Assembly: GCA_964016885.1 (NCBI GenBank)
Contig: OZ024740.1
Location: 11,222,001 to 11,286,000, forward strand
Source of the DNA: Eledone cirrhosa
Lineage: Eukaryota
Reading direction: 5' to 3'
DNA: 64,000 bases
The position numbers and the translations under genes are program-made. The notes beneath the pieces were generated by a model. The model had not been told where the DNA came from, made no database searches, and saw only the letters and a list, made by a program, of their open reading frames with translations. Positions 217 to 52,501 of the stretch are shown one piece after another; position 1 is the first letter of the stretch, and each line of letters opens with the position of its first letter.

Positions 217-1971
217 GCTTGGAAGTGTCTCTATGAAAGGCTTCTAAATGAGGAGAACAAATGGGAGAAAGACAGTCTCCCCCACATCGACCCAATAGAG
301 GGACCAGCAGTGTTAGTCCAGGGTAGTACAATAAGCAAGGCAATCAAAGATATGAAGACGGGTAAGGCGGCTGGTCCTTCGGAAATAGTTGCTGAGATGC
401 TGAAGGCATCTGGTTCGGTGGGACACACCATGGTCACCCGGATAGTTAACCAAGTCGTACAGAATGGGGTTGTTCCGAAGGACTGGCGTAGCAGCATCAT
501 CGTTAACTGCTATAAGGGAAAAGGAGATGCCCTAGATAGGAGTAACTATAGAGGCATTAAATTAATCGACCAGGTCATGAAGGTCACGGAAAAAGTAATA
601 GCGCAACTAATCAGAGAGAGAATTGATCTAGATGAAATGCAGTTCGGATTTGTGTCAGGCAAAAGTACCACAGACGCTCTTTTCATTGTATGACAACTAC
701 AGGAGAAGTACCTAGCTAAAAGTAAACCCCTATACTTAGCTTTCGTCGACTTGGAGAAAGCCTTCGACAGAGTCCCCCGTTCCATTATCTGGTGGTCTCT
801 TAGAAAACTAGGTGTTGACGAATGGCTTGTGAGAGCTATACAAGCCATGTATAAAGAAACAGTCAGTAAGGTTAGAATTAACAACGAATATAGTGAAGAG
901 TTTAGCGTAAAAGTTGGTGTCCATCAGGGCTCTGTTCTTAGCCCCCTACTATTTATTATTGCCCTTCAGGCTATAATAGAGGAGTTCAAGACCGGCTGCC
1001 CATGGGAACTCCTATACGCAGATGATCTAACGCTCATAGCTGAATCAATAACCGAACTAGAGAAGAAATTCCAAACATGGAAGCACGGCCTAGAATCAAA
1101 AGGCCTTAAAATTAACCTGGCTAAGACTAAAGTTCTAGTTTGTAGGAAAGAAAATATGGCGGCAGTCCCATCGGGGAAATGGCCATGCTCAGTGTGTAGG
1201 AAAGGCGTAGGTAGAAACTCCATTTTATGTCCCAAATGCAAAGTATGGGTGCATAAAAGATGTAGTGGGATCACAGGCAAGCTAACTAAGAACATAGATT
1301 TTACATGCGGCCGGTGCTCTGGTGCAATAAGTAGCAGCAAGTGCCCACAAAATACTAGCTCCTTCAACTGCGCAGAGGGTTCTATAGAAATAGTGGACAG
1401 CTTCCGTTACCTGGGTGACAAAATCAGCAGTGGGGGAGGGTGCTCTGAAAGTACAGTAGCTAGAGTCAGAACTGGATGGAAAAAGTTCAGAGAGCTTATA
1501 CCACTATTAGCCGCTAGAGGGTTCTCCCTAAAAATGAAAGGCAGGTTATACGATGCCTGCATACGAACAGCAATGCTGCATGGCAGTGAGACCAGGGCAT
1601 TGTGTGCAGAGGATATACGCAGACTAGAGAGGAACGAAGCTTGCATGCTCCGCTGGATGTGCAATAGTAATATACGTGAACGGCAAAGCATAAACAAACT
1701 AAGGAAAAAATTAGAAATAAGAGGGATCAGATGTTATTTACTCGAGAGAAGGCTACGTTGGTACGGTCACGTGATGCGCATGAAAGACGACAGCTGTATA
1801 ACAAAGTGCAGGGCAATAAAGATAGACGGTAGCCACGGAGTAGGCAGACCCAGAAAAACATGGGACGAGCTGATAAATTCCGACCTCACACGCTTACACC
1901 TCTCCAAGACAATGTCACTGGACCAAGACCTTTGGCGGTACTCAGTAATAGAGAAGACCTGCCTTACCTAA
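217..1971 (+). pseudogene. RTE ORF (RT with inserted PHD finger); in-frame TGA at 691-693
   Basis: ORFs 310-693 and 751-1971 are in one frame, separated by TGA in LFIV*QLQE where family B has LFLVRQMQE (probable CGA>TGA). Confidence 0.88.
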
Positions 1972-2138
1972 ATACAAAGTAAAAACCTACTACAGTCAGT
2001 AGGCATCTCTATCAAAACACCCCCCGTCCCACCACCTCCACCCCATCCACACCGCCCCTTTCAATGTACAGTTATGTTGGTCCCACAACATCCAGGCCGA
2101 AACAAATGAGATCGTGTAGGTGTCACGACAAAAAACAC

Positions 2139-2471: not shown

Positions 2472-4155
<1,684 letters not shown>

Positions 4156-4176
4156 ATATATATATATATGTATATC

Positions 4177-4208
<32 letters not shown>

Positions 4209-4304
4209 TATAACGAAGGAAATGTGGTAAGGAACCAGGTGGACCATAACGCACCAAAGTACTCAATACTTGAGGTAGTAGAGTGGGTAATAGGAACCAG
4301 TAAG

Positions 4305-4398
4305 ACCCCGACAGCTGAGCTCAAGCCGTTTCGACGGCTAATTCTGGACTAAATGAAAATTTATCCTGGTATTTAAATAGCCGATCTTCTCAAGGGGT
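4305..4398 (-). ncRNA. Type-I hammerhead ribozyme, U3:A8 core variant (inverted pLTR copy)
   Basis: Reverse complement of 6800-6893. Confidence 0.75.
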
Positions 4399-5033
4399 AA
4401 TTCCATATATGGTCAAAGTGATTGTCAAAAATCAGTAGTAATTCTGTGGTTGCAAATTAGTAGGGGAGATGGTGGCTAAACCTGCCAGTAGGAGAAAGAG
4501 GGGAGGGGGTGGAGTAGACCCAATCAAGCGTTGGTAGTGCCAGCTACAGCTGGGCATGAGGTCAAAGAAGATACAGGGGAGGGGGAGGGGGAGGAAGTCG
4601 GAACGGTAGGTAGAACAATGGGGGGTAGAAATATATAGGAAAGAAAAGAAAAAATACTGAGAGTGAAGAAAAGCAAATAAGTGTAAAGAAAAAAGTAAAG
4701 TAAATTAAATTCTACGACCTAGGTCTCAGGCTATTGTAAGGCTAGAATAAAATAAAGAAAGAAAGAAAGAAGTTAAGAAATAAATAAATAAAGAAATAAC
4801 GAAATAAGTAAAAGAACTAGGTGGGACGAAATAGGCAAGGACCCTTTTAAGAGGTATAAGTACGTAAATGATACGGTGACGGGTCAACAAAAGGGGCCAA
4901 AATACTAAAGAGACTACCACGAAATAAACAATAAAGGTTTCCATCCCGGGCCAGCAACGACCCAGTGCAGCAAAGTGAACTTGTACGAGATAATAATTCT
5001 GAGTCCCGAGAAAAATATATACTAATGCTAACT

Positions 5034-5699
5034 CTATTCTTTAGGCTCATTGAAAAACACTTCCCATTACAACACTGCTACCACAACATAATTAACAAAA
5101 ATACCATCAAACTCTCTTACAGCACTACACCAAACTTCGCACAAAACATTGTCTCCTCTAACAACAAAAAATTCAACCCCGATGGCAGAAATAACCTAAA
5201 TAGCAGTGGAGAACCGGCCAGGAGGTGTAACTGCCCGGATAGATCTATTTGCCCACTCGACAATAGATGCAGAGACCGTAATGTGATCTACCAGTGCAAC
5301 GTGAGGACGGATACCTCCAACAAAGCCTATATAGGACTTACCGCATGTGACTTCAAGACCCGGCTATACCAACATAGACATACCTTCCGAAACCCGGCCC
5401 GGCGTCACGCCACTACACTTTCGGGCCACATATGGTACCTCAAGGACAACAACATCATCTATGATCTCACTTGGAGGTTACTGTCCAGAGCCAATTCTTA
5501 CACGGGAGGACGCCGTCCGTGCAATTTATGCTCAGAGGAAACTTTACAAATGCTGTTTTCGACGGACCAACTCCTAAACAAGAAAGATGAACTGGTCACT
5601 GCATGTAAACATAGATTGCGTAGGACTTACCTCGCCCTCAAACCCCATAATGACCCGGGGGGGGGGGGGGGGGGGGGGGGGGGTAGACTACGGCTATAA
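5034..5699 (+). pseudogene. Partial tandem copy of the PLE C-terminus (Cys linker + GIY-YIG endonuclease)
   Basis: Nearly identical to 8600-9238. The terminal G-run is about 28 G here versus 8 G at 9223-9230, which changes the C-terminus. Confidence 0.88.
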
Positions 5700-6799
5700 C
5701 ACCCCACTTGCCGATTTTGCAATGGGTAACCCCTGCTTGCCAAGGAAGACGTAAGATCCTCTTTGTATTCTTTTATCGCTTCCTTTATTTCCTTCCCCCC
5801 TCTCTCCTTAGTCCTTCTACCCCAGCTCTTCTCCTTTGTCGGCGTCTTTTCTCGCCCACCCGAGGCTGCCCTTTGGCCCCATGTAGCCTTAGTACCCCCA
5901 CCACCCCCTCCCCTAGTCTATGATAGATTTGGCGGACTCCGCCCTTTATAGCAGTTGGCTTAGACCCCGGATACTTGCCCCCTTTTTCCGACCGCTCCCA
6001 CTATTCTCTGTGCCCTCTATATTTCTTAGTGGCACTTATGCCTTATTTTTTCGTTTCAGTATTTCTTGCTTCGCTTTTCTTCTGGGCGGGGTGGATTCTG
6101 AATTTATTTCTCCGTATTCTACCTTTATTTCGTACGAACTTTCATGTAGCTTGTTTTAGATCTTTTAGAGTTAGCATTAGTATATATTTTTCTCGGGACT
6201 CAGAATTATTATCTCGTACAAGTTCACTTTGCTGCACTGGGTCGTTGCTGGCCCGGGATGGAAACCTTTATTGTTTATTTTGTGGTAGTCTCTTTAGTAT
6301 TTTGGCCCCTTTTGTTGACCCGTCACCGTATCATTTACGTACTTATACCTCTTAAAAGGGTCCTTGCCTATTCCGTCCCACCTAGTTCTTTTACTTATTT
6401 CGTTATTTCTTTATTTATTTATTTCTTTACTTCTTTCTTTCTTTATTTATTTTATTCTAGCCTTACAATAGCCTGAGACCTAGGTCGTAGAATTTAATTT
6501 ACTTTACTTTTTTCTTTACACTTATTTGCTTTTCTTCACTCTCAGTATTTTTTCTTTTCTTTCCTATATATTTCTACCCCCCATTGTTCTACCTACCGTT
6601 CCGACTTCCTCCCCCTCCCCTCTGTATCTTCTTTGACCTCATGCCCAGCTGTAGCTGGCACTACCAACGCTTGATTGGGTCTACTCCACCCCCTCCCCTC
6701 TTTCTCCTACTGGCAGGTTTAGCCACCATCTCCCCTACTAATTTGCAACCACAGAATTACTACTGATTTTTGACAATCACTTTGACCATATATGGAATT

Positions 6800-6893
6800 A
6801 CCCCTTGAGAAGATCGGCTATTTAAATACCAGGATAAATTTTCATTTAGTCCAGAATTAGCCGTCGAAACGGCTTGAGCTCAGCTGTCGGGGT
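6800..6893 (+). ncRNA. Type-I hammerhead ribozyme, U3:A8 core variant
   Basis: Stem I ACCCC/GGGGT; core UUGAGAA (6805-6811); stem II GA(T)CGGCTA/TAGCCGTC; GAAA (6866-6869); stem III ACGGCT/AGCTGT; GUC site with predicted cleavage after 6888. Confidence 0.78.
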
Positions 6894-7078
6894 CTTACTG
6901 GTTCCTATTACCCACTCTACTACCTCAAGTATTGAGTACTTTGGTGCGTTATGGTCCACCTGGTTCCTTACCACATTTCCTTCGTTATCTAGCTCCTACC
7001 CCCGTAGTAGAGCACTTTCCGACCCTACCACGCCGTATCCAGACTTTTCCGCTAAGCTCAATTCATTTCACCCGCACC

Positions 7079-9238
7079 ATGCGAAAACACAACATTGACT
7101 TCTCTACCAAGAACATCCCAATCCCACCGAAAAAACTTTACCTTCGGATGCTCACGCAAAAAATCGATCTATTTGCGAAAAGACTTAGATGGAGAACTTT
7201 TTTCTATGACAGATATTGCGACAACCAAGACTTCGGCACCAAGGAGAGATTCGGATTTATTACCTACAAATCTCCGCCCCTGAACCCCTTGCTCGCACCC
7301 TTCGAGAATGACCTCTTCCAACTGGTCAAGAACATTAAATTTAAACCCAGACACAACCGATTCCTACAAAAACTCCGTAGCAACCTAACAGAGTATGATA
7401 ACACAAATGACATCATGGTGCATTCGGATAAAACTGGGAACCTATACTTTGTCAACCCTGACAGATACCACACACTGATCAGGAGCAGCCTAAACTCCAC
7501 CTATAAAAAGGCCAACCACTCTTGCATCGAGGACATAAATCGAGATGGACAACAAATCACCTCCAGCCTCGGGGTCGCCGACCGCACGGAACCTCTAGAC
7601 CCACGGACACCATACTTCACACTGAAGGACCATAAATCCGATTTTGACCGTAAACCCTCTATCAGGCTTATTAACCCAACGAAGTCCGACATAGGGAGAA
7701 TCAGCAAAAAAATCCTAGACCGCGTGATACCAAAAGTCAAGCAACACACCCGACTTAGCCTATGGATCAACACCCAGGAAGTAATCTCCTGGTTCAGCAA
7801 TATGGAGGATAAACGAGAAACTAAATTCATACAGTTCGACATAGAGAGCTACTATGCTTCAATCACCTTACCGCTACTTACTGCCGCCTTGGACTTCGCC
7901 GAAACACTTGTGCCCATCACCGACCAGGAAAGAAAAATCATCCTCCACGCCAGGAAGACAGTCTTACTCTTTGACGACTCTAAATGGATAAAAAGAGCTC
8001 CCGACTCACCCTTCGACGTCAGCATGGGCGCCACGGATTCGGCGGAGGTCACAGATCTTATAGGATTATTCCTAATAGCCAAACTCACTGATATGTTTCC
8101 TGCATTCGGTGGTGGATTGTACCGTGATGATGGGCTCCTTACCCTTAAAGGGTACAACCCCAGTAGTACAGATCGGGTCCGGAAACAATTAATCAGATTC
8201 TTCCGCGACTGGGGATTTAAAATAACCCTACAAACGTACCTGACCCGAGTAAACTTCCTGGACGTGACCCTCGACCTCGAAAACGACCTGTACTACCCAT
8301 ACAGGAAACCTAATGACAATCTGCACTACATCCACCGCCGATCAAACCATCCTAGGAACATCACAAACAACCTGGTCAAAAACATCTCCCTCCGCATATC
8401 CCGTTTGTCAGCTAATGAGCGGATATTCGATGAACATGCGCCTTATTACAACCAGGCCCTCAAGCGGAGTGGTTTCCGGGAGGAAATATCCTACTGTCCA
8501 GCTCCCATTAGCGGAACCAGCAGGAGACACCGCCGCTCACGCAATGTAACATGGTTCAATCCTCCCCACAACGCAGAGGTGACAACTCCCATCGGGAAAC
8601 TATTCTTTAGGCTCATTGAAAAACACTTCCCATTACAACACCGCTACCACAACATAATTAACAAAAATACCATCAAACTCTCTTACAGCACTACACCAAA
8701 CTTCGCACAAAACATCGTCTCCTCTAACAACAAAAAACTCAACCCCGATGGCAAAAATAACCTAAATAGTAGTGGAGAACCGACCAGGAGGTGTAACTGC
8801 CCGGATAGATCTATTTGCCCACTCGACAATAGATGCAGAGACCGTAATGTGATCTACCAGTGCAACGTGAGGACGGATACCTCCAACAAAGCCTATATAG
8901 GACTTACCGCATGTGACTTCAAGACCCGGCTATACCAACATAGACATACCTTCCAAAACCCGGCCCGGCGTCACGCCACTACACTTTCGGGCCACATATG
9001 GGACCTCAAGGACAACAACATCACCTATGATCTCACTTGGAGATTACTGTCCAGAGCCAATTCTTACACGGGAGGACGCCGTCCGTGCAATTTATGCTCG
9101 GAGGAAACTTTACAAATGCTGTTTTCGACGGACCAACTCCTAAACAAGAAAGATGAACTGGTCACTGCATGTAAACATAGATTGCGTAGGACTTACCTCG
9201 CCCTCAAACCCCATAATGACCCGGGGGGGGTAGACTAG
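7079..9238 (+). CDS. PLE polyprotein: reverse transcriptase + C-terminal GIY-YIG endonuclease (about 719 aa, intact)
   Basis: ATG at 7079 (the track's 6932 start is a non-ATG extension). RT motifs FIQFDIESYY, SMGATDS, GLYRDDGL, VNFLDVTL. CxC-x5-C-x5-C linker (CNCPDRSICPLDNRC), VIY..AYIG, downstream CNLC; this layout matches Hydra-clade PLEs. Confidence 0.9.
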   Translation: MRKHNIDFSTKNIPIPPKKLYLRMLTQKIDLFAKRLRWRTFFYDRYCDNQDFGTKERFGFITYKSPPLNPLLAPFENDLFQLVKNIKFKPRHNRFLQKLRSNLTEYDNTNDIMVHSDKTGNLYFVNPDRYHTLIRSSLNSTYKKANHSCIEDINRDGQQITSSLGVADRTEPLDPRTPYFTLKDHKSDFDRKPSIRLINPTKSDIGRISKKILDRVIPKVKQHTRLSLWINTQEVISWFSNMEDKRETKFIQFDIESYYASITLPLLTAALDFAETLVPITDQERKIILHARKTVLLFDDSKWIKRAPDSPFDVSMGATDSAEVTDLIGLFLIAKLTDMFPAFGGGLYRDDGLLTLKGYNPSSTDRVRKQLIRFFRDWGFKITLQTYLTRVNFLDVTLDLENDLYYPYRKPNDNLHYIHRRSNHPRNITNNLVKNISLRISRLSANERIFDEHAPYYNQALKRSGFREEISYCPAPISGTSRRHRRSRNVTWFNPPHNAEVTTPIGKLFFRLIEKHFPLQHRYHNIINKNTIKLSYSTTPNFAQNIVSSNNKKLNPDGKNNLNSSGEPTRRCNCPDRSICPLDNRCRDRNVIYQCNVRTDTSNKAYIGLTACDFKTRLYQHRHTFQNPARRHATTLSGHIWDLKDNNITYDLTWRLLSRANSYTGGRRPCNLCSEETLQMLFSTDQLLNKKDELVTACKHRLRRTYLALKPHNDPGGVD

Positions 9239-9917
9239 GGCTATAACACCCCACTTGCCGATTTTGCAATGGGTAACCCCTGCTTGCCAAGGAAGACGTA
9301 AGATCCTCTTTGTATTCTTTTATCGCTTCCTTTATTTCCTTCCCCCCTCTCTCCTTAGTCCTTCTACCCCAGCTCTTCTCCTTTGTCGGCGTCTTTTCTC
9401 GCCCACCCGAGGCTGCCCTTTGGCCCCATGTAGCCTTAGTACCCCCACCACCCCCTCCCCTAGTCTATGATAGATTTGGCGGACTCCGCCCTTTATAGCA
9501 GTTGGCTTAGACCCCGGATACTTGCCCCCTTTTTATTTATTTCTTAACTTCTTTCTTTCTTTCTTTATTTTATTCTAGCCTTACAATAGCCTGAGACCTA
9601 GGTCGTAGAATTTAATTTACTTTACTTTTTTCTTTACACTTATTTGCTTTTCTTCACTCTCAGTATTTTTTCTTTTCTTTCCTATATATTTCTACCCCCC
9701 ATTGTTCTACCTACCGTTCCGACTTCCTCCCCCTCCCCTCTGTATCTTCTTTGACCTCATGCCCAGCTGTAGCTGGCACTACCAACGCTTGATTGGGTCT
9801 ACTCCACCCCCTCCCCTCTTTCTCCTACTGGCAGGTTTAGCCACCATCTCCTCTACTAATTTGCAACCACAGAATTACTACTGATTTTTGACAATCACTT
9901 TGACCATATATGGAATT

Positions 9918-10011
9918 ACCCCTTGAGAAGATCGGCTATTTAAATACCAGGATAAATTTTCATTTAGTCCAGAATTAGCCGTCGAAACGGCTTGAGCTCA
10001 GCTGTCGGGGT
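9918..10011 (+). ncRNA. Type-I hammerhead ribozyme, U3:A8 core variant (3' pLTR copy)
   Basis: Identical to 6800-6893 at offset 3118; predicted cleavage after 10006. Confidence 0.78.
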
Positions 10012-10057
10012 CTTACTGGTTCCTATATATATATATATGTATATATATATGTATATA

Positions 10058-12500: not shown

Positions 12501-15500
12501 TGACCATGCTGTAAAATGGAGGGGTAGAGAGGGCCCTTGAGTCTACTTGAGTCTAGTAAGACATCCTCTCTAGTGCTGGTGGCACAAATAAAAGCACCCA
12601 GTCCATGCTGTAAAGTGGCGCTGGTGTTAGGAAGGGCATCCAACCAGTGTATCAATGCCAAAAAGCTTATCAGCACAGCAACAAAACAGCATAGAAAAAT
12701 ATGAAGACGTCGCATCTCAGAGTTGCAACACTTAATGTTGGCACTCTCAGAGGTAGGTCTGCTGAAATAGCGGAGATGCTGGAGAGAAGGCAGGTGGATG
12801 TGTGCTGCGTGCAAGAGGTGAGATGGAGGGGTGCCTCTGCGAGACTAGTCGTAGGCAAGCGTCTTAGCTATAAGCTATTCTGGGTAGGTAAGGATGATGG
12901 GTTAGGGGGAGTAGGCATTTTCCTGGCTGAGAAATGGATCAATAAGACAATAGAGGTAGTTCGAGTTAGTAATCGAATAATTAAGCTTAGATTAGTTGTA
13001 GGTAGGAGACTACTGACAATCATCTCGGTCTATGCTCCCCAAGCAGGCCTAGGCAAAGATGAGAAAGACTGCTTTTATGAGCAACTTTTGCAAACAACCA
13101 CAATGACAGAGGACGGAGACATCGTTATGCTAGCAGGAGACTTCAATGGTCATGTTGGACAGCTCCAGGATGGTTACACTGGGGTACATGGTGGGCACGG
13201 TTACGGTTCAAGAAATGAAGAAGGAGTGAGACTTCTTGAATTTTGTGATGCAAGTACATTGACTATTTGCAACACAAACTTCCAGAAACCTGCCAATCAC
13301 CTAATAACCTACAAATCTGGTGAGCACATAAGCCAGATTGACTTCCTGCTAGTTAGGCAGCGGGACAGGCAGATAGTGTCTAATACCAAGGCATACCCTG
13401 GGGAAGAATGTACCCCACAGCATAGGTTAGTTGTTAGTGATATCTCAGTAAGCAAGAGATGGAATGAGACATATAGGAAGGTGTGGAGAAGAAAGGTCTG
13501 GAAGCTAAAAGACCTTTGACTAAAATTCAAATTTAGGAAAGCCCTTCAAGATGTATATGACGAAAAAGAAGACGATTTAGAGACGTATGACATAGATAAT
13601 AACTGGAAGTTCTTACGTGACAACTTGCTGAAGGCTACTGATGAAACCTGTGGCTGGAGCAGAGCTCCAACCAGACAGAGAGTGACCTGGTGGTGGAACA
13701 GCAGTGTAGATAAGGCTATTAGAGACAAAAGACTAGCATGGAAGGCTTGGAATAAGGGTGGGAGTAGGGAAGAATATACAGCCACTAAGAGAGAAGCTAG
13801 ACGTCAGGTGTACTTAGCACGCAGGGAGGCAGAGAGTAGGAGGTTTGCCAATGTTCTGCGACGGGAAGATCAGAGGCGTGCGGTGTTCCACATTGCAAGG
13901 CAGTGTGTCAATGCAAATCAGGATGTTGTTGGTGATAAATGTGTCCGGGATGATGCCGGTGTACTTAGTGTCACGAATGACCAGAAAAAGGAGGCCTGGA
14001 AATGTCATTATGAGAGACTGATGAATGTGGAGAACGAATGGGAGAGAGAGAAATTACCCTTGGTAGATCCGACAGAGGGACCAGCTATTGAGATTGACGA
14101 ATATAGGGTCCAAGAGGCGATTAGGGAAATGAAAAATGGTAAGGCGGCCGGACCATCGGGAATAGTTGCTGAGATGCTGAAGGCATCAGGGGACGTAGGC
14201 ACTAAACTGGTTGCACGCATAATCAATCAGGCTATATATGGTGGTGTCATACCCAAAGACTGGTGCAGCAGTATTCTCATAAATTGCTACAAAGGTAAAG
14301 GGATGCTTTGGAGAGGAGCAATTATAGGGGTATAAAACTGATAGATCAGGTTATGAAAGTGGCAGAAAGGATTCTAGCACAACTAATTAGAGAAAGGGTC
14401 AAACTAGATGAGATGCAGTTTGGTTTTGTGCCTGGGAAGAGTACAACAGATGCCCTCTTCTTGGTGAGACAAATGCAAGAGAGGTTCTTAGAGAAGAATA
14501 AGCCACTATACTTAGCCTTTGTTGACCTAGAGAAGGCCTTTGATAGGGTACCCCGATCTGTCATCTGGTGGTCCCTAAGGAAGCTGGGTGTTGAGGAATG
14601 GCTTGTAAGGACAGTGCAAACTTTGTACAGAGGTACTCTCAGTAAAGTCAGGGTAGGAATGGAGTTTAGTGAGGAATTCCAGATACAAGTAGGAGTACAT
14701 CAGGGTTCGGTCCTCAGCCCGCTCTTGTTCATTATAGTCCTCCAAGCCATAACAGAGGAGTTTAAGACTGGCTGTCCATGGGAACTTCTCTATGCTGACG
14801 ATCTGGCTCTTATGGCAGAATCAGTAGAGGAGCTAGAGAATAAATTCCGGCTATGGAAACAGCAGTTGGAAGCAAGAGGACTGAGAGTAAATCTAGCTAA
14901 GACAAAAGTGTTGATGAGTAGAAAAGAGGACAAAACCCTGATTCCGTCAGGGAAATGGCCATGTTCGATATGCAGAAAAGGAACTGGCATAAATTCTATA
15001 AAATGCACACAATGTAGGTCCTGGGTACACAAGAGATGTAGCGGGATAGCAGGCAAACTAACAGGTAGGGAGAAATATGTATGCAGTAGATGTACAGGGA
15101 AATTAGACAGTAGAAGTCGCACTGATAGACACATTTTTCAAATGCGAGAGGGCGCTATAGAAGTGGTGGATAGCTTCCGGTACCTAGGAGATCAGATTAG
15201 CATGGGAGGAGGGTGTTCCGAGGCCATAGTATCTAGAATAAGGACGGGTTGGAAGAAGTTTAGGGAGCTGCTTCCTCTGTTGACGAAGAAGGGTTTCTCC
15301 TGCGTACGAAAGGCCGGTTGTATGATGCCTGTGTGAGGAGCGCGATGCTGCATGGTAGTGAGACATGGGCAGCTACCGCAGAAGATATGCGACGGCTGGA
15401 GAGAAATGAGGCAAGCATGCTCCGTTGGATGTGCAGTGTAAATGTGCGTGAACGACCCAGCATAAATGTGTTGAGAGAGAAACTGTGTCTGAGAGGGATA

Positions 15501-39177: not shown

Positions 39178-39230
39178 CTTGGAACTCTTTTAACCATCTT
39201 TTGATCTTATATTATATATACATATATATA

Positions 39231-39420
39231 TAGGAAATGGTAAGATCCCGACAGCAGAGCTCAAGCTGTTTCGACGGCTATGTCCAGAAATAGCCGTCGA
39301 AACGGCTTGAGCTCTGCCGTTGGGGTCTTAGCTTTTCCTATTTACTACTCTACTACCCTAAGTATTTAGTATTCTGGTGCGTTATGGTCCATCTGGTTCC
39401 TTACCACAATTCCTTTGTTA
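39231..39420. mobile_element. Foldback mini-element derived from the pLTR family of the 4210-10025 PLE (diverged)
   Basis: Inverted short arm 39231-39281 plus forward arm 39282-39420 homologous to 6849-6987; TA flanks. Confidence 0.82.
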
Positions 39421-39763: not shown

Positions 39764-40035
39764 AATAGACAGATAGATATACAAATAGATAGATAGATAG
39801 ATAAATTTCTATTTATTTGCCACGAGGGCACAAAAGAAGGGGACATTTACACAGTGGGGGAGTTTACATAAATCGAGTAAAGAAAAAAGGAATAACAATA
39901 ATAATATAACAATAAAAAGTCCTCAAAAGGGAGGGGGCGTGTTGGGGATTGCACACACCCCCGAAAAGTGTGCAACTCTTTTCGCGGGGGAAGCCCAGAG
40001 AGGAGGCGCTCCCCCTTTCCTCTTCACTTCTTCAC

Positions 40036-43000
40036 CTACAGAACAATGTAGAGAGAAGGCCCATTTACACGGGCCATTCTCGCTTCTTTCACCCACCTTT
40101 CATAAAACTGTCTGGGACCAAGCACTTCTCTCTCCATCCTGATTCTTCTTCCGAAGTGGTATCGGAAGAAGTAAACCAGGTGATGGCCGGAGAGAAAGTC
40201 ACCCGACCTCAGACCTTTCAGGCGCGTCCACCACACAACCTCTTTCATCATGGCTATTACGCACAGAAAGACCGCCTCTGCTTCATTTCTGAAGGGAGGA
40301 GGCGGCTTGATGTTCACCACAGACTCGGCGGTTAATCGAATCGGCGCCACACGCGACAGCAGTCGTTCGACGTAGCCCCACAGATCGGCAACGCCCGGGC
40401 AGTGTACCAGTGCATGCGCAACGGTTTCCTCGTCGCGCACGCATCTGGGACAGATCTTTTTCGCGGGATCCCTGCCCGGGCGCCCGTGTCTGTAGAGCTT
40501 TTCTCGAACGGGCAGAGCCCCCCGGTAACACTGCCAGGCTAGGGACCTCTGGAAGTTGTCCATGGGTCCCGGGCCGAAAGTTCTACCGAACAGGCTGGCC
40601 AGTTCGTCCTCCTCCATGCCTAGCGACTCTCCAAGGGTGTCGTCGCCCCTGCTAGCCACCAACCCTCTATAGAATGTCGAGGTGGATTCTCCACTGACAG
40701 TCGGGTCCGCTTGCCAGATAGCCGTGAGCGCCTGGGCACACTCAGTGTGCCAGTTGCCCAGTTTTCTCGGTCTTTGCTTCACCCAGGATTGCAGTTCGGT
40801 GAGCGAGACGAGCTGTGGGAAGGCTCGCCTCACAAACGGGGCCCACACCGGCTGACCGTTGAGGAATACCTGTAGATGCCGTAGCCTCAATGCGTGCCTA
40901 CGCATCAACAGCCACGGCATACCCAGCCCTCCTTTCGAAGGGTGCTGGCAGCAGATGGATCTCCTCACCATGGGAGGCCGCTTCTTCCAGAGGAACTGGA
41001 AGAGCATGCGTTCCATGATGGTGAGCTTTTCCTTGGGGCAAGGCACGACGGTCAGGCGGTAGTAGATGACGGACGCTATGTAAGCGTTCGTCACCTCCGC
41101 CCGACCTTTCAGTGATAGTTTGCACTTGGCCCACTTCTGGGTCAGCGCAAACACCCTGCTCGTCACCTCGCCCCAATTCTTCTCCACCTGGAGGTCCGGT
41201 CCGAACCAGACCCCGAGCAGCTTCACCGGGCCCTCCGTCCACCGCCCGACGACACCGTCTAACGGCATCGGTTTGCCCCTCCACGTTCCGAGTTGCAAAC
41301 CGACTGACTTGTCCTGGTTCAGCTTAGCCCCCGTCAGCCTTTCGTATTCCTCCAGTAGGGTGGCGATCGCCCCGATTTCCGAGGCGTCCGCCACCATTAC
41401 TGTTACGTCGTCGGCATAGGCCGAGACTGCTTTGTGCAATCCCGGTTCCAGGGGTATGCCCCGCAGCAACTCCAACTTCCGCAGCAGTGGCTCGAGAGTC
41501 AATACGTACAGAAGGGAGGAGAGGGGGCACCCCTGTCTGATGGATCGGGTGATTTGAAACGGCTCCGAGAGGTAGCCGTTTACTTTAATCCTAGAGTAGA
41601 TGTTGCCACTGTGCATGGCAGAAATCCAGCCCCTGAAAACGGGTCCGAAGCCCGCCGCCGCTAGCACCGCATCCAGGTAACCATGGTCGACCCTATCGAA
41701 CGCCTTAGATTGATCCAAGTTGATCAGGGCCCCACCAAAGCCGGGTTCGTAGCCAACCCTCTCTATGATGTATCGCATGAGGTGGAGGTTGTCGTGAATG
41801 GACCTGGACGGGATAGCGCATGTCTGCGCGTCTCCCACCAAACCACCCACCACAAGCGCCAACCTCTTCGCCAACACCTTGGCCAAAATCTGTAACTCTG
41901 CATTCAGCAGAGTTATGGGCCTAAAGTTACTTAAGTCGTCCCCCTTGCTCTCGTCCTTCCTCACTAGCGTGACCACGCCCTTGGTCACAGAACAGGGAAT
42001 TCTCCCGTTCTGTTGCCAGTTGCAATAGACAGCCTCGAGGAGTTCGGAGAACAAGACCGGCATAGCTAAATAAAGTTCGTATGGTAGACCATCGAGACCC
42101 GGGGATTTGCGTCTGCTGCATTGGCTGAGCGCTTCCCCGATTTCAGTGGCTGTGATTGGCCCTTCGCAGCACTCCGCTTCGCCGCTCGAAAGACGCGGTA
42201 GACCGTCGAGGTATGGACCGAAGTCCACATCCCCGTCCGGCCCCCCGCCACCTCCGAACAGTCGAGCAAAGTGCCTTTGAAAGGTCTCGCACATTCGCTC
42301 AGGTTCAAGGATCACCCGTCCATCCTGGTCTCGCAAAGACCGAATGGTGGATTTAATCCCACTCTTGGCTTCTGTCACGCGGGCCCAGCTAACAGCTTTG
42401 GTCCCCTCGTTTCCTAAAGCACGTATTTTACTTCGGACAACGCAGCCTTCGTGCTTCGCGTCAAAGAACTGGCTCAATGCCGTTCTCGTCGCTAACACTC
42501 TGGCTACGTCTCCGCTCCTAATCGCCTCTTCTAGTTTATCTGTTAACTCCCTTTCCCTCCTATTTCTATTCGCCGCTAGTTCCTTACTGTAACCTATCGA
42601 ACTTACTCTAATCTCTCTCTTTAGAGATATCCACCACCTACTGTTGACGATCGCTCCCGTCAACCGCATCTTAACTAAGCTACTAATCCGGTTTCTGTAA
42701 TCTTTCTTTGTCGGTAAGGACAAGTTCATCTTCCAGTAACCGGGACCCTGTCTATGCGTTCTATCAAGGTTGACCACGCAGGTCACTAATTTGTGATCTG
42801 AATAGCCAACCATGATCAGTTCTGGACAACTAAATACGTCCCTATCCTTACTCCTAACCAAAAACCTATCTAGGTACGATCTAGATTGTCCACTGCGGTT
42901 TGCCCAGGTCCAGGTTGGCGCAGTTGGACAATCTAGTCGAAATCTATCGACCAGGTCGAATCGATCGAGTAACCCCTTGAGGCTGCTACACCCCCCTCTA

Positions 43001-43464
43001 TCGGGACATGCCCCTGCATAGTCCCAACGCGCATCTAGGATTCCATTCCAGTCCCCCACTAAAAGCAGGGAACGCGACGTTCCTAGAAAAGTCTCCAGAC
43101 GTTGGAAGAAGTCGGCTCTCTCCGCCCCGAAGGGAGCATAAAGACCGACCAGTCTGAAAGCCCCGCCTTCACCACCTCCGACGTCCAGCACCATTAATCG
43201 ACCCCCCGGGTCCGAGTGAACAATCTGTACGTCGAGAGTTAGACGTTTATCCAGCAGTACGGCAACTCCCCCCCCGCCTCCGGGTTGACAGAGAGATGCG
43301 TGCATCTCAAAGTCATCGAAGGCGGGCGCCAGCTGTCTCACGCTGCTGATCCGACTCTCGCAAACAACCATCACATCTATACTTTGTGACCTGAGGTCAC
43401 TTAGAAGCTTTGCTTGCTTCCAAGCTGAGCTCAGGCCACGCGCGTTCAAACAGCCAACTCTCAA
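40036..43464 (-). CDS. ORF2: APE endonuclease + RT + C-terminal zinc finger (uninterrupted, no ATG at the N-terminus)
   Basis: GCLNARGL, VGDWN, SYLDRF, SDHK; KSPGLDGLP, NFRPITLLN, DQSKAFDRVDH, IRQGCPLS, AYADD; CPRC..ETVAHALVHC. Confidence 0.9.
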   Translation of the reverse strand: MRVGCLNARGLSSAWKQAKLLSDLRSQSIDVMVVCESRISSVRQLAPAFDDFEMHASLCQPGGGGGVAVLLDKRLTLDVQIVHSDPGGRLMVLDVGGGEGGAFRLVGLYAPFGAERADFFQRLETFLGTSRSLLLVGDWNGILDARWDYAGACPDRGGCSSLKGLLDRFDLVDRFRLDCPTAPTWTWANRSGQSRSYLDRFLVRSKDRDVFSCPELIMVGYSDHKLVTCVVNLDRTHRQGPGYWKMNLSLPTKKDYRNRISSLVKMRLTGAIVNSRWWISLKREIRVSSIGYSKELAANRNRRERELTDKLEEAIRSGDVARVLATRTALSQFFDAKHEGCVVRSKIRALGNEGTKAVSWARVTEAKSGIKSTIRSLRDQDGRVILEPERMCETFQRHFARLFGGGGGPDGDVDFGPYLDGLPRLSSGEAECCEGPITATEIGEALSQCSRRKSPGLDGLPYELYLAMPVLFSELLEAVYCNWQQNGRIPCSVTKGVVTLVRKDESKGDDLSNFRPITLLNAELQILAKVLAKRLALVVGGLVGDAQTCAIPSRSIHDNLHLMRYIIERVGYEPGFGGALINLDQSKAFDRVDHGYLDAVLAAAGFGPVFRGWISAMHSGNIYSRIKVNGYLSEPFQITRSIRQGCPLSSLLYVLTLEPLLRKLELLRGIPLEPGLHKAVSAYADDVTVMVADASEIGAIATLLEEYERLTGAKLNQDKSVGLQLGTWRGKPMPLDGVVGRWTEGPVKLLGVWFGPDLQVEKNWGEVTSRVFALTQKWAKCKLSLKGRAEVTNAYIASVIYYRLTVVPCPKEKLTIMERMLFQFLWKKRPPMVRRSICCQHPSKGGLGMPWLLMRRHALRLRHLQVFLNGQPVWAPFVRRAFPQLVSLTELQSWVKQRPRKLGNWHTECAQALTAIWQADPTVSGESTSTFYRGLVASRGDDTLGESLGMEEDELASLFGRTFGPGPMDNFQRSLAWQCYRGALPVREKLYRHGRPGRDPAKKICPRCVRDEETVAHALVHCPGVADLWGYVERLLSRVAPIRLTAESVVNIKPPPPFRNEAEAVFLCVIAMMKEVVWWTRLKGLRSGDFLSGHHLVYFFRYHFGRRIRMEREVLGPRQFYERWVKEARMARVNGPSLYIVL

Positions 43465-43469
43465 TTTAT

Positions 43470-45332
43470 CTATTTTGGTGTTGAAAGTGAAGAAAGAAAA
43501 GCACTTACCTCTCCGGGTTGCGTAATTTCCATGGCATCAGGTGTGTTGGGTGGAGGGATGTTTTGTGGTGGTGTGGGGGTACACGTGTGTGGTGGGGTTG
43601 GGGTATTTGGAGTTGTGTCAGGGAGAGGGGCGGTTATGGGGAAATCTTTCAAGAGGACGCGATTCAACGGTTTTAAACAGGGGGGGCTCACGTCCCGTCT
43701 AAATTGTTCTTTTAAGGAACGATAAAGGTCCAGAGGGACCTTTATCATTTTTAAATGGGTGAAGTTCTCTGTTGAGATAAAGTTTGGCCCTTCGGTCTGC
43801 ACCATAGGGTTATTGTTTATTAATTTAACCAGTTTTTTGTTTTCTTTATTTATATATGTGTATTGCAACGTCTTTTTTTGTGATGCTGTCAATGTTTCGG
43901 AGAGGGGAGGCGCAGATTTATTTTTGTTTGTTGAGGGTGGGGTGTTTTTGATTGGAGTTGGTGTTTGTGTGTGGGTTATTTGTGGTGTGCTGGGTGTGTG
44001 TTTTCTTTTTTTTCTTTTAACTTGTCTGAAGGCTTCTCCTCCTTCTTCTTCAGAAGTTGGGGGAAACTCTTCAGCGCTAGGTGGGAGGGACGTGTTGTGT
44101 GGTTGTTTTTTTTTTGCGGGAGGGGTAGATTTGTTACTGTTTTTTTTATTATTTGTTTGGAATGGGTTTTGTGGTGGTGGTGGTGGTAATGTTTGTGTCG
44201 TGCTTGTGGTTGGTAATGGTGGTGGTGATGTTTGTGTTGTGGTTGGTGGTGGTGATTTTTGTGTCGTGCTTGTGTTTGGTGCTGGTGGTGGTGATGTTTG
44301 TGTTGTGTTTGTGGTTGGTGGTGTCTGTATTTTGTTTGCTGTGTGTGGTATTAGTGTATTTTTGGAGGTGGGTGGTGCTGGTGTACTGTTTGTGGTGGGT
44401 GTGGGCAATAGTCCTTTTTGGGGGATACGTTTCGGGCAGTTAGCCTTAACGTGTCCCCTTTCCATGCATAAATAGCATGCTGGTCTTCTCCCCTCTACAA
44501 TTATGTCTATTGGGGTAAGGTCATCCAGCCAGATGCGATCCGGGATTTGTGCTATTCTTTCGGGCCTCATTTGGACTAGTATGTCGAGGCCCATTCCCAG
44601 GAACGCATCTCCAGTTGCCCTCCCCATTGACAGCATAGTGTCTTCGCCCATATCAATGAAGCCAGCAATAGCCCACCAGAAGTCCATTGTGGGCAGCATT
44701 GTTTTTACTTTTACCCTCTGTGTTCTTCTACCCATGTAGGAGGGATAGAAGCTATATGTTGTCGACGAGAGTGGGCTTAGGGAAAGCTGAACCGCCGTTT
44801 CTTTGTCTCTTGTTAGGACCGAAATGCTGCCATAGAGTCGGTCCTTTCGTATGAAGAGAATATTCTTCATATAGTCTTTTAGGACTAACTCTATTTCCAT
44901 TTGGCTGGGCTGTGCTGGCTTTCTTGACTGGTTTAGTATAGTTCTGTATATAACTGTGTTTTCTGCTCTGGCTTTCTTGAATTCTGGGGGGGAGTTAATG
45001 GAAAACATTCCGTTTTCCCCCAAAACAATATGTTTCTTTGCTTCGGCCAGTTTTTCTCTGGCGGCAGTTAGGTCAATTGGTGTGTATGTAATGGATTGCT
45101 TTGTTTTCTGGGCGAAAGTTGCCCTGTCGTTATTTGTATTATTTTCTGTTTGTTTGTTTTCTGTTTGCTCATTTTCCTTAACATTTGTTTTTTCATTTTG
45201 TTTGTTTGTTTCAATGTCTAATTTTGTTGTAATTATTTTTTGTTCTTCAGACTTGGGGGGCGTGGCAGAGCTAATGGCAGACATGTCTGCCATCTTTTCC
45301 GCCATGCTGCCAAGAAAGAAATTTTTCGGCAA
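43470..45332 (-). CDS. ORF1: gag-like protein with CCHC zinc knuckle and Pro/Thr-rich linker
   Basis: CYLCMERGHVKANC knuckle, basic KRKKRK patch, position upstream of ORF2. The probable start is the ATG at 45305 or 45293. Confidence 0.82.
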   Translation of the reverse strand: MPKNFFLGSMAEKMADMSAISSATPPKSEEQKIITTKLDIETNKQNEKTNVKENEQTENKQTENNTNNDRATFAQKTKQSITYTPIDLTAAREKLAEAKKHIVLGENGMFSINSPPEFKKARAENTVIYRTILNQSRKPAQPSQMEIELVLKDYMKNILFIRKDRLYGSISVLTRDKETAVQLSLSPLSSTTYSFYPSYMGRRTQRVKVKTMLPTMDFWWAIAGFIDMGEDTMLSMGRATGDAFLGMGLDILVQMRPERIAQIPDRIWLDDLTPIDIIVEGRRPACYLCMERGHVKANCPKRIPQKGLLPTPTTNSTPAPPTSKNTLIPHTANKIQTPPTTNTTQTSPPPAPNTSTTQKSPPPTTTQTSPPPLPTTSTTQTLPPPPPQNPFQTNNKKNSNKSTPPAKKKQPHNTSLPPSAEEFPPTSEEEGGEAFRQVKRKKRKHTPSTPQITHTQTPTPIKNTPPSTNKNKSAPPLSETLTASQKKTLQYTYINKENKKLVKLINNNPMVQTEGPNFISTENFTHLKMIKVPLDLYRSLKEQFRRDVSPPCLKPLNRVLLKDFPITAPLPDTTPNTPTPPHTCTPTPPQNIPPPNTPDAMEITQPGEVSAFLSSLSTPK

Positions 45333-46739: not shown

Positions 46740-48418
46740 AGCTTTGCGGAAAGCGGTGTCGGCCTACGCCGATGACGTGACAGTAATGGTGTCGACGGCC
46801 TCCGAAATCGAGGCGGTCGGCACCTTACTGGAGGAGTACGAAAGGTTCACAGGGGCTAAGCTGAACCGGGACAAGTCGATCGGTTTGCAACTCGGCACGT
46901 GGAGGGGCAGACCGATGCCCTCCGATGGCGTCGTCGGACGCTGGACGGAGGGCCCGGTGAAGTTGCTCGGGGTCTGGTTCGGACCGGACCTCCAGGTGGA
47001 GAAAAACTGGGCGGAGGTTACGAACAGGGTGTTTGCACTGACCCAGACGTGGGCCAGTTGCAAACTATCCCTGAAAGGTCGGGCGGAGGTGGCGAACACC
47101 TACATAGCGTCCGTCATCTACTACCGCCTGACCGTAGTGCCCTGTTAAAGGGAAACCCTCACCAAGATGGAGCGCGCACTCTTCCAATTCCTTTGGAAGA
47201 GGCGGGCTCCTATGGTGAGGAGATCCATCTGCTGTCAACACCCTTCGAAAGGAGGGCTGGGGATGCCGTGGTTAATGATGCGTAAACACGCATTAAGGCT
47301 ACGGCACCTCTACGTATTCCTCACCGGTCAACCGGTGTGGGCCTCGTTTGTGAGACGAACCTTTCCCAGACTCGTCTCACTCACCGAGCTGCAATCCTGG
47401 GTCAAGCAAAGACCGAGAAAACTGGGCGCCTGGCACACTCAGTGTGCCCAGGCGCTCACCGCCCTCTGGCAGGCGGATCCGGTTATCAGTGGAGACTCCA
47501 CCGCAACATTCTATAGAGGGCTGGTACGCAGCAGGTGCGACGACGCCCTCGGAGAAGCCCTAGACATGGAGGTGGACGAACTGGCCAGCCTGTTCGGTAG
47601 GACATTCAGCCCGGGACCTATGGACAACTTCCAGAAGTCTCTGGCCTGGCAGTGCTACCGAGGGGCTTTACCCGTTCGAGAAAGGCTCTACAGACACGGG
47701 CGCCCGGGTAGGGACCCCGCCAAAAAGATCTGTCCCAGATGCGTGTGCGACGAGGAAACCGTTGCACACGCATTGGTACACTGCTCGGGCGTAGCCGATC
47801 TGTGGGGCTATGTCGAACAACTGCTGTCAAGGGTGGGACCGATCCGGTTGACCACCGAGTCTATTGTAATGATCAAGCCGCCTCCCCCCTTCAAAGATGA
47901 AGCAGAGGCGGTGTTTCTGTGCGTAATAGCCATGGCGAAAGAGGTTGTATGGTGGACGCGTCTGAAAGGACTGAGGTCAGGCACCTTTCTCTCTGGCCAA
48001 CAACTGGTCCGTTTCTTCCGATATCATTTCGGAAGAAGGATCAGGATGGAGAGAGAGGTGCTCCACCCCAGTCGTTTTTATGAAAGGTGGGTGAAAGTGG
48101 CGAGAATGGCCCGTGTGAATGGGCCTTCTCTTTACATAAGCCTGTAGGTGGAAAAGAGGAAGGAACGAGGGAGCACCCCCTCTCTGTGCTCCTGAGGAAA
48201 AGGGTTGCACACTTTTTTCGGGGGTGTGTGCGACCTCCCAAGGCGCCTCCTCTCTATTGAGGATTTTGTTATAAATTTTATTTTTTGTTATATTTTATTT
48301 TATTTTTATATTTTGTTATTGCCTCCTGCTTATTGAGGACGCCTTTTTGTGTAAACTCCCCCCTTTGTACTTGTCCCACTTTTGATGCCCTGGTGGCAAA
48401 TAAAAGAAACATATCTAT
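46740..48418 (+). mobile_element. 5'-truncated Tx1/L1-type LINE related to family A
   Basis: AYADD to C-terminus closely similar to 40036-41430; TAA stop at 47146-47148; 3' end GGCAAATAAAAGAAACATATCTAT. Confidence 0.9.
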
Positions 48419-49127: not shown

Positions 49128-52288
<3,161 letters not shown>

Positions 52289-52501
52289 TATATATATATA
52301 TACAGGGAGTGTAACTTGGAGTTACTGCAGGTTCACCCGGGTGAGCACTCGATATTTAGGTTCGCTTCTGTGTTGAGCTGCCGATTATTGAGTCGGGTAA
52401 GATCGATACAGATCGAACCTTGAGCTGATCAGTGGCGAAACGGGCGTCACCTACCAATAAATGTAATGAAGGAGTAACCAATCGTCCTTGTTATCCTTTC
52501 A

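What the first reader, a model, noticed from the sequence alone, without database searches (positions are those of the whole stretch)
6800..10011. U3:A8 core-variant hammerheads bracket an intact PLE ORF and define a 3118-nt monomer
Seen: UUGAGAA replaces CUGAnGA, while stems I-III, GAAA and GUC are intact; three identical copies are present. Predicted cuts after 6888 and 10006 would release a 3118-nt RNA containing the whole ORF (ATG 190 nt downstream of the first cut). Known: positions 3 and 8 form a Watson-Crick pair, so C3U+G8A is compensatory. Inference: read-through transcripts are processed to unit length, possibly circularised. The inserted DNA runs through the cut site and ends 19 or about 100 nt beyond it, which fits a circular or uncleaved template and would explain the partial-tandem layout.
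Basis: partly seen in the sequence, partly recalled or inferred. Interest (0 to 1): 0.8.

Follow-up and report, generated by a model that had tools for sequence, protein, structure and literature searches.

The report
Penelope retroelement's hammerhead leaves cleavage scars
This is a Penelope-like jumping gene flanked by two hammerhead-shaped RNAs with an already described core variant; hundreds of its genomic copies begin exactly at the predicted cut site, so the ribozyme likely cuts in the living germ line, but the normal unit is about 3.55 kb and the 3118-nt length comes from a deletion found only in this copy.

Summary
Observation confirmed: three identical type I hammerheads with U3:A8, an intact 719-aa ORF, cuts predicted after 6888 and 10006. 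The element is a Hydra-clade Penelope-like element. U3:A8, paired ribozymes about 3 kb apart and the circular-template idea are in print (Cervera and de la Pena 2014). Correction: 3118 nt is a private 427-nt deletion; 15 other copies measure 3523-3577 nt. New, from the genome's ~15,700 exact copies of the cut-site flank: (1) insertions are two head-to-head arms, one ending 19 and one ~99 nt past the cut, copied from one template; (2) segments start exactly at the cut 379 times (about 5 in 6 true junctions) versus 29 and 13 at control positions, and 11 loci carry untemplated A/U tails exactly at the cut (0 of 35 at a control site): likely a record of cleavage in vivo; (3) about 86% of sampled arms stop 33-44 nt upstream of the cut, with an extra G (89:11 over C), likely a capped start inside loop II that omits the catalytic half; (4) 16 of 18 longer-than-unit arms ignore both stops, favouring a circular or end-jumped template. 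No RNA data; circles are inferred.

The parts
4207..5036 (-). Inverted second arm of the same insertion: outer end about 99 nt past the cut, inner (5') end 722 nt upstream of the cut; keeps most of the segment deleted in the downstream repeat
4305..4398 (-). Third hammerhead copy, identical to the other two; predicted cut after 4310
5034..6888 (+). 5'-truncated upstream unit (pseudo-LTR): last ~220 codons of the ORF plus full-length 3' UTR
5988..6413 (+). 427-nt segment present here and in other copies, absent from the downstream repeat
6794..6905 (+). Hammerhead 1, type I, U3 (6805):A8 (6810); core motif 6800-6893, distal stem I pairs 6794-6797 with 6902-6905; predicted cut after C6888; palindromic loop III
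6844..6848 (+). Inferred capped transcription starts inside loop II: A6848 (main, 40 nt before the cut) and A6844 (minor)
6860..6873 (+). Alternative hairpin that hides GAAA; pair probability 0.24 in the whole ribozyme, 0.76 in an RNA starting at 6848
6905..6908 (+). First inferred reverse-transcription start (+17 to +20; TA shared with the target), at the foot of extended stem I
6985..6988 (+). Second inferred reverse-transcription start (+97 to +100); the stretch between the two is the PLE 'tail', here about 80 nt
6951..6992 (+). 13-codon out-of-frame upstream ORF
7079..9238 (+). Intact 719-aa Hydra-clade PLE ORF: reverse transcriptase (DKT 117-119, YRDD 348-351), CxCx5C linker 572-580, GIY-YIG endonuclease from 591
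9533..9534 (+). Junction of the private 427-nt deletion, in a T run; one match in the genome
9918..10011 (+). Hammerhead 2, identical; predicted cut after C10006; the arm ends at 10025 in (TA)n
52107..52292 (.). Short head-to-head insertion of the same subfamily (+19 arm and +99 arm, both lacking the ribozyme's 5' half), the commonest product genome-wide
39230..39420 (.). Short head-to-head insertion of a sister subfamily (86-88% alike)

Best explanation
A Hydra-clade Penelope-like retroelement carries a U3:A8 type I hammerhead in each pseudo-LTR that likely cuts read-through RNA after C17 into units of about 3.55 kb, whose ends are likely closed by ligation or crossed by a jumping reverse transcriptase, so that copying gives longer-than-unit, partial-tandem inserts. 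Shown by sequence: the fold, the ORF, the unit length, insertion into (TA)n, and two head-to-head arms ending +19 and about +99. Inferred steps: (a) the protein cuts both strands of (TA)n and primes two cDNAs on one RNA, at +19 and at +99, and the two cDNA ends are joined, giving the inverted repeat and the tail (0.85); (b) a Pol II start inside loop II (A6848) makes a capped mRNA that holds only the substrate half of the 5' ribozyme; priming near its 5' end runs off after 50-140 nt and leaves the ~200-bp palindromes that make up most copies (0.85); (c) RNA that holds the whole ribozyme is cut in vivo; priming on a cut, unclosed RNA runs off at +1 (0.9); (d) because both priming sites lie at the 5' end of a cut monomer, only a closed or end-jumped monomer can give long copies; this regenerates the pseudo-LTR (0.6).
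For: Cut: segments that start exactly at +1 behind two non-matching bases 379 against 29 at -3 and 13 at +5 (long arm only), of 15,733 exact +1..+19 copies; 25 of 30 inspected were true junctions, 20 separate insertions, and in 13 of the 16 with a partner arm the partner also stops within -1..+2. 144 head-to-head junctions have both arms at the cut; 26 of the first 50 carry untemplated or re-copied bases between them. 26 of 29 arms joined straight to (TA)n near the cut start at +1. 11 loci (12 matches) among the first 100 of 116 carry 5-30-nt untemplated A/U-rich inserts exactly between C17 and +1, one of them 28 A; at a control bond 7 nt upstream 0 of 35 inserts are untemplated. Cap: (TA)n-S-A6848 gives G 89: C 11 in the first 100 of 108, template base T, but extra G in only 2 of 29 at +1. 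85 of 90 scored arms stop at -33..-44, 36 at -39/-40; 12,980 junctions have both arms in that zone; 6 of 40 read-throughs are jumps from about -40 onto RNA that itself begins at about -40. One template: 26 of 28 short pairs are one +19 and one +99 arm, the +19 arm reaches further 5' in 7 of 26, so it is no fold-back copy; arms and repeats within an insertion differ at 0-4 shared polymorphic sites, different insertions at a median of 9-25 for segments over 400 nt. Closed template: 16 of 18 ORF-continuous arms start upstream of -100, none at -33..-44 or +1. Core: first 100 of 2,186 matches with positions 3, 7, 8 left open are all U3/G7/A8; sister copies keep U3:A8 in 5 of 7 while position 7 varies; 26 of 26 published Hydra rows have C3:G8.
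Against: No RNA evidence; nothing was assayed. Microhomology also makes junction hot spots: 163 seamless junctions sit at the 8-bp loop III palindrome, and 20 of the first 50 double +1 junctions are blunt and could come from a CG overlap. About 1 in 6 of the 379 is a fifth G, not a junction (5 of 30). The repeat in a sister subfamily is weak: 708 against 91, but about 65 of the first 100 are a five-G variant. No compensatory change among 8 aligned ribozymes. Cut-site starts are only some 2-4% of arms. Tandem arrays exist (five ribozymes 3542-3543 nt apart) and could supply uncut multimers. At L254 and L255 one arm stops at +1 while the other crosses a tail, so that RNA was not a covalent circle. 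In the anole PLE the ribozyme was dispensable in vitro and no reads ended at its cut (PMC11167929).
Confidence: 0.7

Rival explanations
1. The ribozyme cuts, but cutting is a side path or a brake; long copies come from uncut multimeric transcripts of tandem loci, as in the anole element.
For: Cut-site starts are a few percent of arms; 2,186 copies hold the whole ribozyme 5' half, so their templates were continuous across it; a multi-unit array exists; PMC11167929 found unprocessed RNA to be the main substrate in vitro.
Against: Only one array of two or more whole units among the first 100 ribozyme matches, yet long inserts carry many different haplotypes, each uniform within itself (77 shared polymorphic sites); linear copying shortens the upstream repeat at each generation; untemplated tails sit inside arms that continue 120 to over 900 nt upstream.
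Confidence: 0.22
2. The ribozyme is an inert fold; arms end at +1 and at -40 because reverse transcriptase pauses there or repair picks short overlaps.
For: Palindrome-driven junctions are as numerous as double +1 junctions (163 against 144); folding z-score is ordinary; no covariation; a competing hairpin hides GAAA.
Against: Overlap cannot explain arms joined straight to (TA)n at +1 (26 of 29), untemplated bases between two +1 ends, A/U tails only at the scissile bond or the extra G only at -40.
Confidence: 0.06
3. A 3118-nt RNA is the family's working unit, the missing 427 nt being an intron.
For: PLEs can hold introns (PMC2377424); this copy could release a 3118-nt RNA with an intact ORF.
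Against: The gap has no GT-AG ends and lies in a T run; its junction occurs once in 3.0 Gb; the same insertion's upstream repeat and inverted arm keep the segment; 15 of 15 other units are 3523-3577 nt.
Confidence: 0.02

Closest known systems
Hydra clade of Penelope-like elements (Craig et al. 2021, PMC8557442; includes Hydra-1_Obim of octopus)
   Same: Single ORF, C-terminal GIY-YIG, DKT, CxCx5C linker, CxxC and CxH, no CCHH, (TA)n targets, type I hammerhead near the 3' end, inverted truncated copy and tail.
   Different: U3:A8 where all 26 listed rows have C3:G8; RWR for RWK; longer stems II and III and a 37-nt loop II; unit about 3.55 kb where the paper says generally under 3 kb; tail about 80 nt.
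Schistosoma Cercyon PLE hammerheads (Cervera and de la Pena 2014, PMC4209133)
   Same: U3-A8 core variant (about 1,300 hits), pairs about 3 kb apart around an ORF, close opposite-strand pairs, and the cleave-circularise-copy model.
   Different: Those are minimal ribozymes without helix III that need dimers; this one folds a 6-bp helix III alone. That paper had no in vivo evidence; here the insertion junctions map the cut.
Anolis Poseidon element PAc (Frangieh et al. 2024, PMC11167929)
   Same: Both DNA strands cut and extended, two internal start sites that define the tail, AT-rich targets, hammerhead upstream of the starts.
   Different: No cut-site ends were found for PAc; here each inverted arm uses one of the two starts, and cut-site ends and a capped start are recorded in the genome.
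R2 elements with HDV-like ribozymes (Eickbush et al. 2013, PMC3774820)
   Same: Genomic 5' junctions reflect where the ribozyme cut the template.
   Different: Other ribozyme class and retroelement class; R2 primes at the RNA 3' end, not next to the cut.
Animal non-LTR retrozymes (PMC7229834; bioRxiv 10.64898/2026.07.22.740005)
   Same: Type I hammerheads cut tandem RNA to monomers that are closed into circles, likely by RtcB, and are linked to PLEs.
   Different: Retrozymes are short non-coding tandem repeats; this element is autonomous, and its short copies are inverted pairs lacking the catalytic half.

Membership tests
Penelope-like elements, endonuclease-bearing | Single ORF with reverse transcriptase and GIY-YIG endonuclease | tested here: met
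   719 aa, FDI and YRDD motifs, VIY-x-YIG at 591-608; 2,054 homologues, the best with the GIY-YIG family PF01541 on record. Pfam and PDB give no direct hit.
Penelope-like elements, endonuclease-bearing | Partial tandem (pseudo-LTR), inverted 5'-truncated copy, tail at one end | tested here: met
Penelope-like elements, endonuclease-bearing | RT groups with telomerase RT in a tree or by fold | not tested
   No tree built; the structure prediction had not finished.
Hydra clade | RWK and DKT motifs | tested here: met
   DKT at 117-119; RLRWR at 35-39 (K to R; R also in 4 of 14 aligned homologues).
Hydra clade | CxCx5C linker, CxxC and CxH around the E/N residues, no CCHH | tested here: met
   CNCPDRSIC 572, CNLC 670, CKH 698; definition from PMC8557442 section 11. 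Motif order matches Hydra-1_Obim by eye; no alignment to it was run.
Hydra clade | Insertion into (TA)n | tested here: met
Hydra clade | Canonical C3:G8 hammerhead (reported trait, 26 of 26 rows) | tested here: not met
   U3:A8 in the first 100 of 2,186 copies; a compensated variant, not loss of the ribozyme.
Naiad/Chlamys clade | N-terminal endonuclease, no canonical hammerhead | tested here: not met
   Endonuclease is C-terminal (definition).
Type I hammerhead ribozyme | Three helices around the core, stem I open, NUH cut site, G10.1-C11.1 | tested here: met
Type I hammerhead ribozyme | Watson-Crick pair between positions 3 and 8 | tested here: met
   U3:A8; natural U3/A8 and its activity in vitro are stated in PMC3088659.
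Type I hammerhead ribozyme | Covariation in the stems | tested here: inconclusive
   84% of cells paired, 0 compensatory pairs in 8 close relatives.
Type I hammerhead ribozyme | Self-cleavage at C17 | not testable with these tools
   Indirect genomic support only.
Circular-RNA retroelements (retrozyme-like pathway) | Covalently closed monomer RNA | not testable with these tools
   No RNA run listed; indirect for and against (L254, L255).

The most novel reading that the evidence does not exclude
This family's insertion junctions are an in vivo record of a PLE life cycle: the hammerhead cuts, the cut ends get tailed, closed or jumped, rolling copying rebuilds the pseudo-LTR, one RNA is primed twice to give the inverted arms, and a promoter inside loop II splits the ribozyme so that the capped mRNA escapes cutting and seeds more than ten thousand 200-bp palindromes.
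Probability: 0.55. Interest if true: 0.78.

Novelty: new variant of a known kind. Interest (0 to 1): 0.6.

Why it matters
What PLE hammerheads do in vivo is open: Cervera and de la Pena proposed cleavage and circles without in vivo evidence, Craig et al. call the function unclear, and Frangieh et al. found the ribozyme dispensable in vitro with no reads at its cut. How pseudo-LTRs are rebuilt is also open. Here one young, high-copy family with intact ORFs (this copy and 7 of 15 others) gives base-level predictions: 5'-OH at 6889, tailed or cyclic-phosphate ends at 6888, a cap at 6848, priming at +19 and +99, a ~3.55-kb closed RNA. The same junction census can be run on any PLE family from assemblies alone. 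The short palindromes may be mistaken for MITEs in repeat annotation (inference).

Tried and rejected
Rfam: no hammerhead match in the window or in 6700-7000. Pfam and PDB sequence searches: nothing useful. DNA similarity search of the own genome returned nothing, as it skips common words; exact patterns were used instead. No RNA holder listed; four contig sets were laid instead: ends at 6908 and 6988 run into TA repeats in X1 and X4, at 6988 also in X5; no joint across the 427-nt gap was listed, but reads were cut at 6395-6459, so this says nothing on the deletion. Structure prediction not finished. Naiad, my first guess from the N-terminus, rejected by domain order. Intron for the 427 nt, rejected. 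Splice acceptor at -39/-34 as cause of the stop zone, rejected: no constant upstream exon at the junctions, extra G instead. Fold-back of one cDNA as source of both arms, rejected for 7 of 26 pairs and for the long inserts; not excluded at L251. The five-ribozyme array is not used as proof of rolling copying: units 1 and 3 share three variants against units 0 and 2, which fits a later DNA duplication. The first cap test was blurred by partner-arm bases (43 G, 42 C, 15 A of 100) and was repeated on (TA)n junctions only. Earlier findings of the scan: three look-ups, nothing. Two papers on 3:8 exchanges and dimeric PLE hammerheads were not held.
Full report
Observation. The motif is there as described. 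The 94 nt at 6800-6893 are identical to 9918-10011 and to 4305-4398 on the minus strand and fold into a type I hammerhead with U3 at 6805, A8 at 6810, a bulged stem II, GAAA, a 6-bp stem III with a palindromic loop, and GUC ending at C6888; stem I extends through an internal loop to 6794/6905. A descriptor finds it once in the unit and in 0 of 300 shuffles. Energy alone (z -0.96) and Rfam do not flag it. Positions below count from the predicted cut: C6888 is 0, G6889 is +1.

What the element is. The ORF 7079-9238 (719 aa) has RT motifs, DKT, a CxCx5C linker, a C-terminal GIY-YIG domain, CxxC and CxH, and no CCHH: the definition of the Hydra clade of Penelope-like elements (PMC8557442 section 11), whose members include an octopus family with the same run of motifs (compared by eye). 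2,054 homologues among 8,000 scored candidates; the best 120 are 38-54% identical. The host is a 3.0-Gb animal genome rich in (TA)n; I did not identify it. All 26 Hydra hammerhead rows in that paper's File S2 have C3:G8. Here the first 100 of 2,186 matches with positions 3, 7 and 8 left open all read U3/G7/A8, and 7 sister copies, found with a pattern allowing Y at 3 and R at 8, give U:A 5, U:G 1, C:A 1 with position 7 free. No stem covariation appears in these 8 close sequences.

The unit is not 3118 nt. The window locus is one insertion: an inverted arm 4207-5036, then 1.5 units 5034-10025, in (TA)n. The upstream repeat and, for most of its length, the inverted arm hold 427 nt that the downstream repeat lacks. 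The gap has no splice ends and its junction occurs once in the genome. 15 of 15 other two-ribozyme arms of the subfamily measure 3523-3577 nt, 7 with ORFs of 717-724 aa; four units of a tandem array measure 3542-3543; one sister copy measures 2772.

Two arms, one template. There are 15,733 exact copies of +1..+19. Inserts are head-to-head pairs: 26 of 28 short pairs have one arm ending +19 and one about +99, as do most long ones. The +19 arm reaches further 5' in 7 of 26 pairs, so it is not a fold-back copy of the other. Within an insertion, arms and repeats differ at 0-4 of the shared polymorphic sites they cover; between insertions the median is 9-25 for segments over 400 nt (30 insertions, 77 sites, low-complexity columns masked). 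This fits the anole enzyme, which cuts and extends both strands and starts at two internal sites (PMC11167929), and resembles L1 twin priming (recalled).

A capped start inside the ribozyme. Of 90 arms scored from the first 100 places, 85 stop at -33 to -44, 36 of them at -39/-40, and 5 run past -60; 11 places were left out of that script because they were held in other loci, 9 of them long, which gives about 87 of 101. The anchor needs -31..+4 intact, so it cannot see +1 starts. 12,980 junctions, sister subfamilies included, have both arms in this zone. Where A(-40) joins (TA)n through one G or C, G wins 89:11 (first 100 of 108) though the template has T; at +1 an extra G appears in 2 of 29. 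An untemplated G is the known trace of a copied cap (recalled from L1 work), and the site looks like a Pol II initiator (recalled consensus). Six of 40 read-throughs past +99 are jumps from about -40 onto RNA that runs from about -40 to +141..+918. So a capped RNA likely starts at A6848, in loop II, and lacks the catalytic half; its 3' half prefers a hairpin over GAAA (0.76 against 0.24). Drosophila Penelope also has an internal promoter in the pseudo-LTR (PMC2377424).

Scars at the cut. Segments starting at +1 behind two non-matching bases: 379; at -3: 29; at +5: 13, long arm only. Of 30 inspected, 5 are a fifth G and 25 are true junctions from 20 insertions; 13 of 16 partner arms also stop within -1..+2. 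Both arms reach the cut in 144 junctions; of the first 50, 26 have untemplated or re-copied bases between them, 20 are blunt and 4 have one arm at -2 or -5. 26 of 29 arms joined to (TA)n start at +1. Between C17 and +1, the first 100 of 116 inserts are 63 extra G, 22 local duplications, 3 single A/T and 12 matches at 11 loci with 5-30 untemplated A/U-rich bases, one with 28 A; at the bond -7/-6 all 35 inserts are duplications. These map both an RNA 5' end at +1 and an RNA 3' end at C17. Against: the loop III palindrome draws 163 seamless junctions, so the blunt class proves nothing; the sister-subfamily repeat is weak (708 against 91, about 65 of the first 100 a five-G variant); cut-site starts are only a few percent of arms.

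Closed template. Both priming sites lie just behind the cut, so a cut linear monomer yields at most 99 nt unless its ends are closed or jumped. Of 18 arms continuous into the ORF among the 40 hits, 16 start upstream of -100, one at -23, one at +48, none at -33..-44 or +1: their template was neither the capped RNA nor a 5'-cut linear RNA. A circle or a jump across ends held by stem I explains this; so do uncut multimers from tandem arrays, of which one was seen among 100 matches. At L254 and L255 one arm stops at +1 while the other crosses a tail into the upstream unit, which means a nick and a jump; at L251 both arms carry the same 5-nt insert, which fits a ligated RNA or a fold-back. Animal retrozyme monomers are closed by RtcB in vitro (PMC7229834).

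Comparison with print. Natural U3-A8 and its activity in vitro: PMC3088659. U3-A8 in PLEs, pairs about 3 kb apart, close opposite-strand pairs and the circle model: PMC4209133. Ribozyme cuts read from insertion junctions: R2, PMC3774820. I found no report of cut-site or cap scars in PLE junctions in nine searches of the open library (one search concerned R2); subscription papers are not covered. Seen: PMC4209133 parts 1-2 of 4; PMC11167929 parts 1-2 of 4 and passages; PMC8557442 passages, section 11, supplement part 2 of 59 and search hits; bioRxiv 10.64898/2026.07.22.740005 part 1 of 5 (supplements not seen); passages of PMC3088659, PMC2377424, PMC7229834; abstract of PMC3774820. Unseen supplements of PMC4209133 and PMC11167929 may hold related junction data.

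Verdict. Its value lies in the family's junction record, which makes the in vivo role of PLE hammerheads testable at single-base level. New variant of a known kind; interest 0.6.

Noticed in passing
L062:7171-10000 and L063:1-742 (G000:C1 about 91,489,170-91,492,740): About 65 near-identical head-to-tail copies of a 55-nt piece of the ORF at the junction of the two arms, behind a 4.5-unit tandem; repeated re-copying by a telomerase-related enzyme or a later minisatellite expansion.
   Followed up: no
L061-L062: Units of the array alternate: 1 and 3 share three variants against 0 and 2.
   Followed up: partly
L261, L280 and 5 more of the first 100 matches: Runs of A directly upstream of A(-40), between the two arms; jump onto a poly(A) tail or untemplated addition.
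   Followed up: partly
L082, L093, L095, L096, L107, L115; L109, L112, L134: Template jumps from -40, or from +1, onto internal positions of the element's RNA (+141 to +918).
   Followed up: partly
window 5657-5683 and 9223-9230: G run just before the stop codon, 27 long upstream and 8 downstream; length changes would alter the C-terminus. The frame is also open back to 6878, across the cut site.
   Followed up: no
L259-L295, L310-L312: Several sister subfamilies vary in the stem I internal loop but keep GGGGU, the +19 end and the +99 end; one unit measures 2772 nt.
   Followed up: partly
window 800-1984 and 2972-4156; 12701-15336: RT-bearing ORFs of another non-LTR family (RTE-like by recalled motifs), two of them as a 94% inverted pair directly beside the PLE.
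   Followed up: no
window 40036-45305 (-), 46744-48156, 58975-63964 (-): Two-ORF LINE copies with endonuclease and RT (L1/Tx1-like by recalled motifs), one with an intact 1111-aa ORF2; an 86% inverted pair 40027-41439 / 46744-48156.
   Followed up: no
window 55058-58471 (+): Non-LTR element with RT and a C-terminal restriction-like endonuclease (R4/Dong-like by recalled motifs), ORF split into 497 and 633 aa.
   Followed up: no
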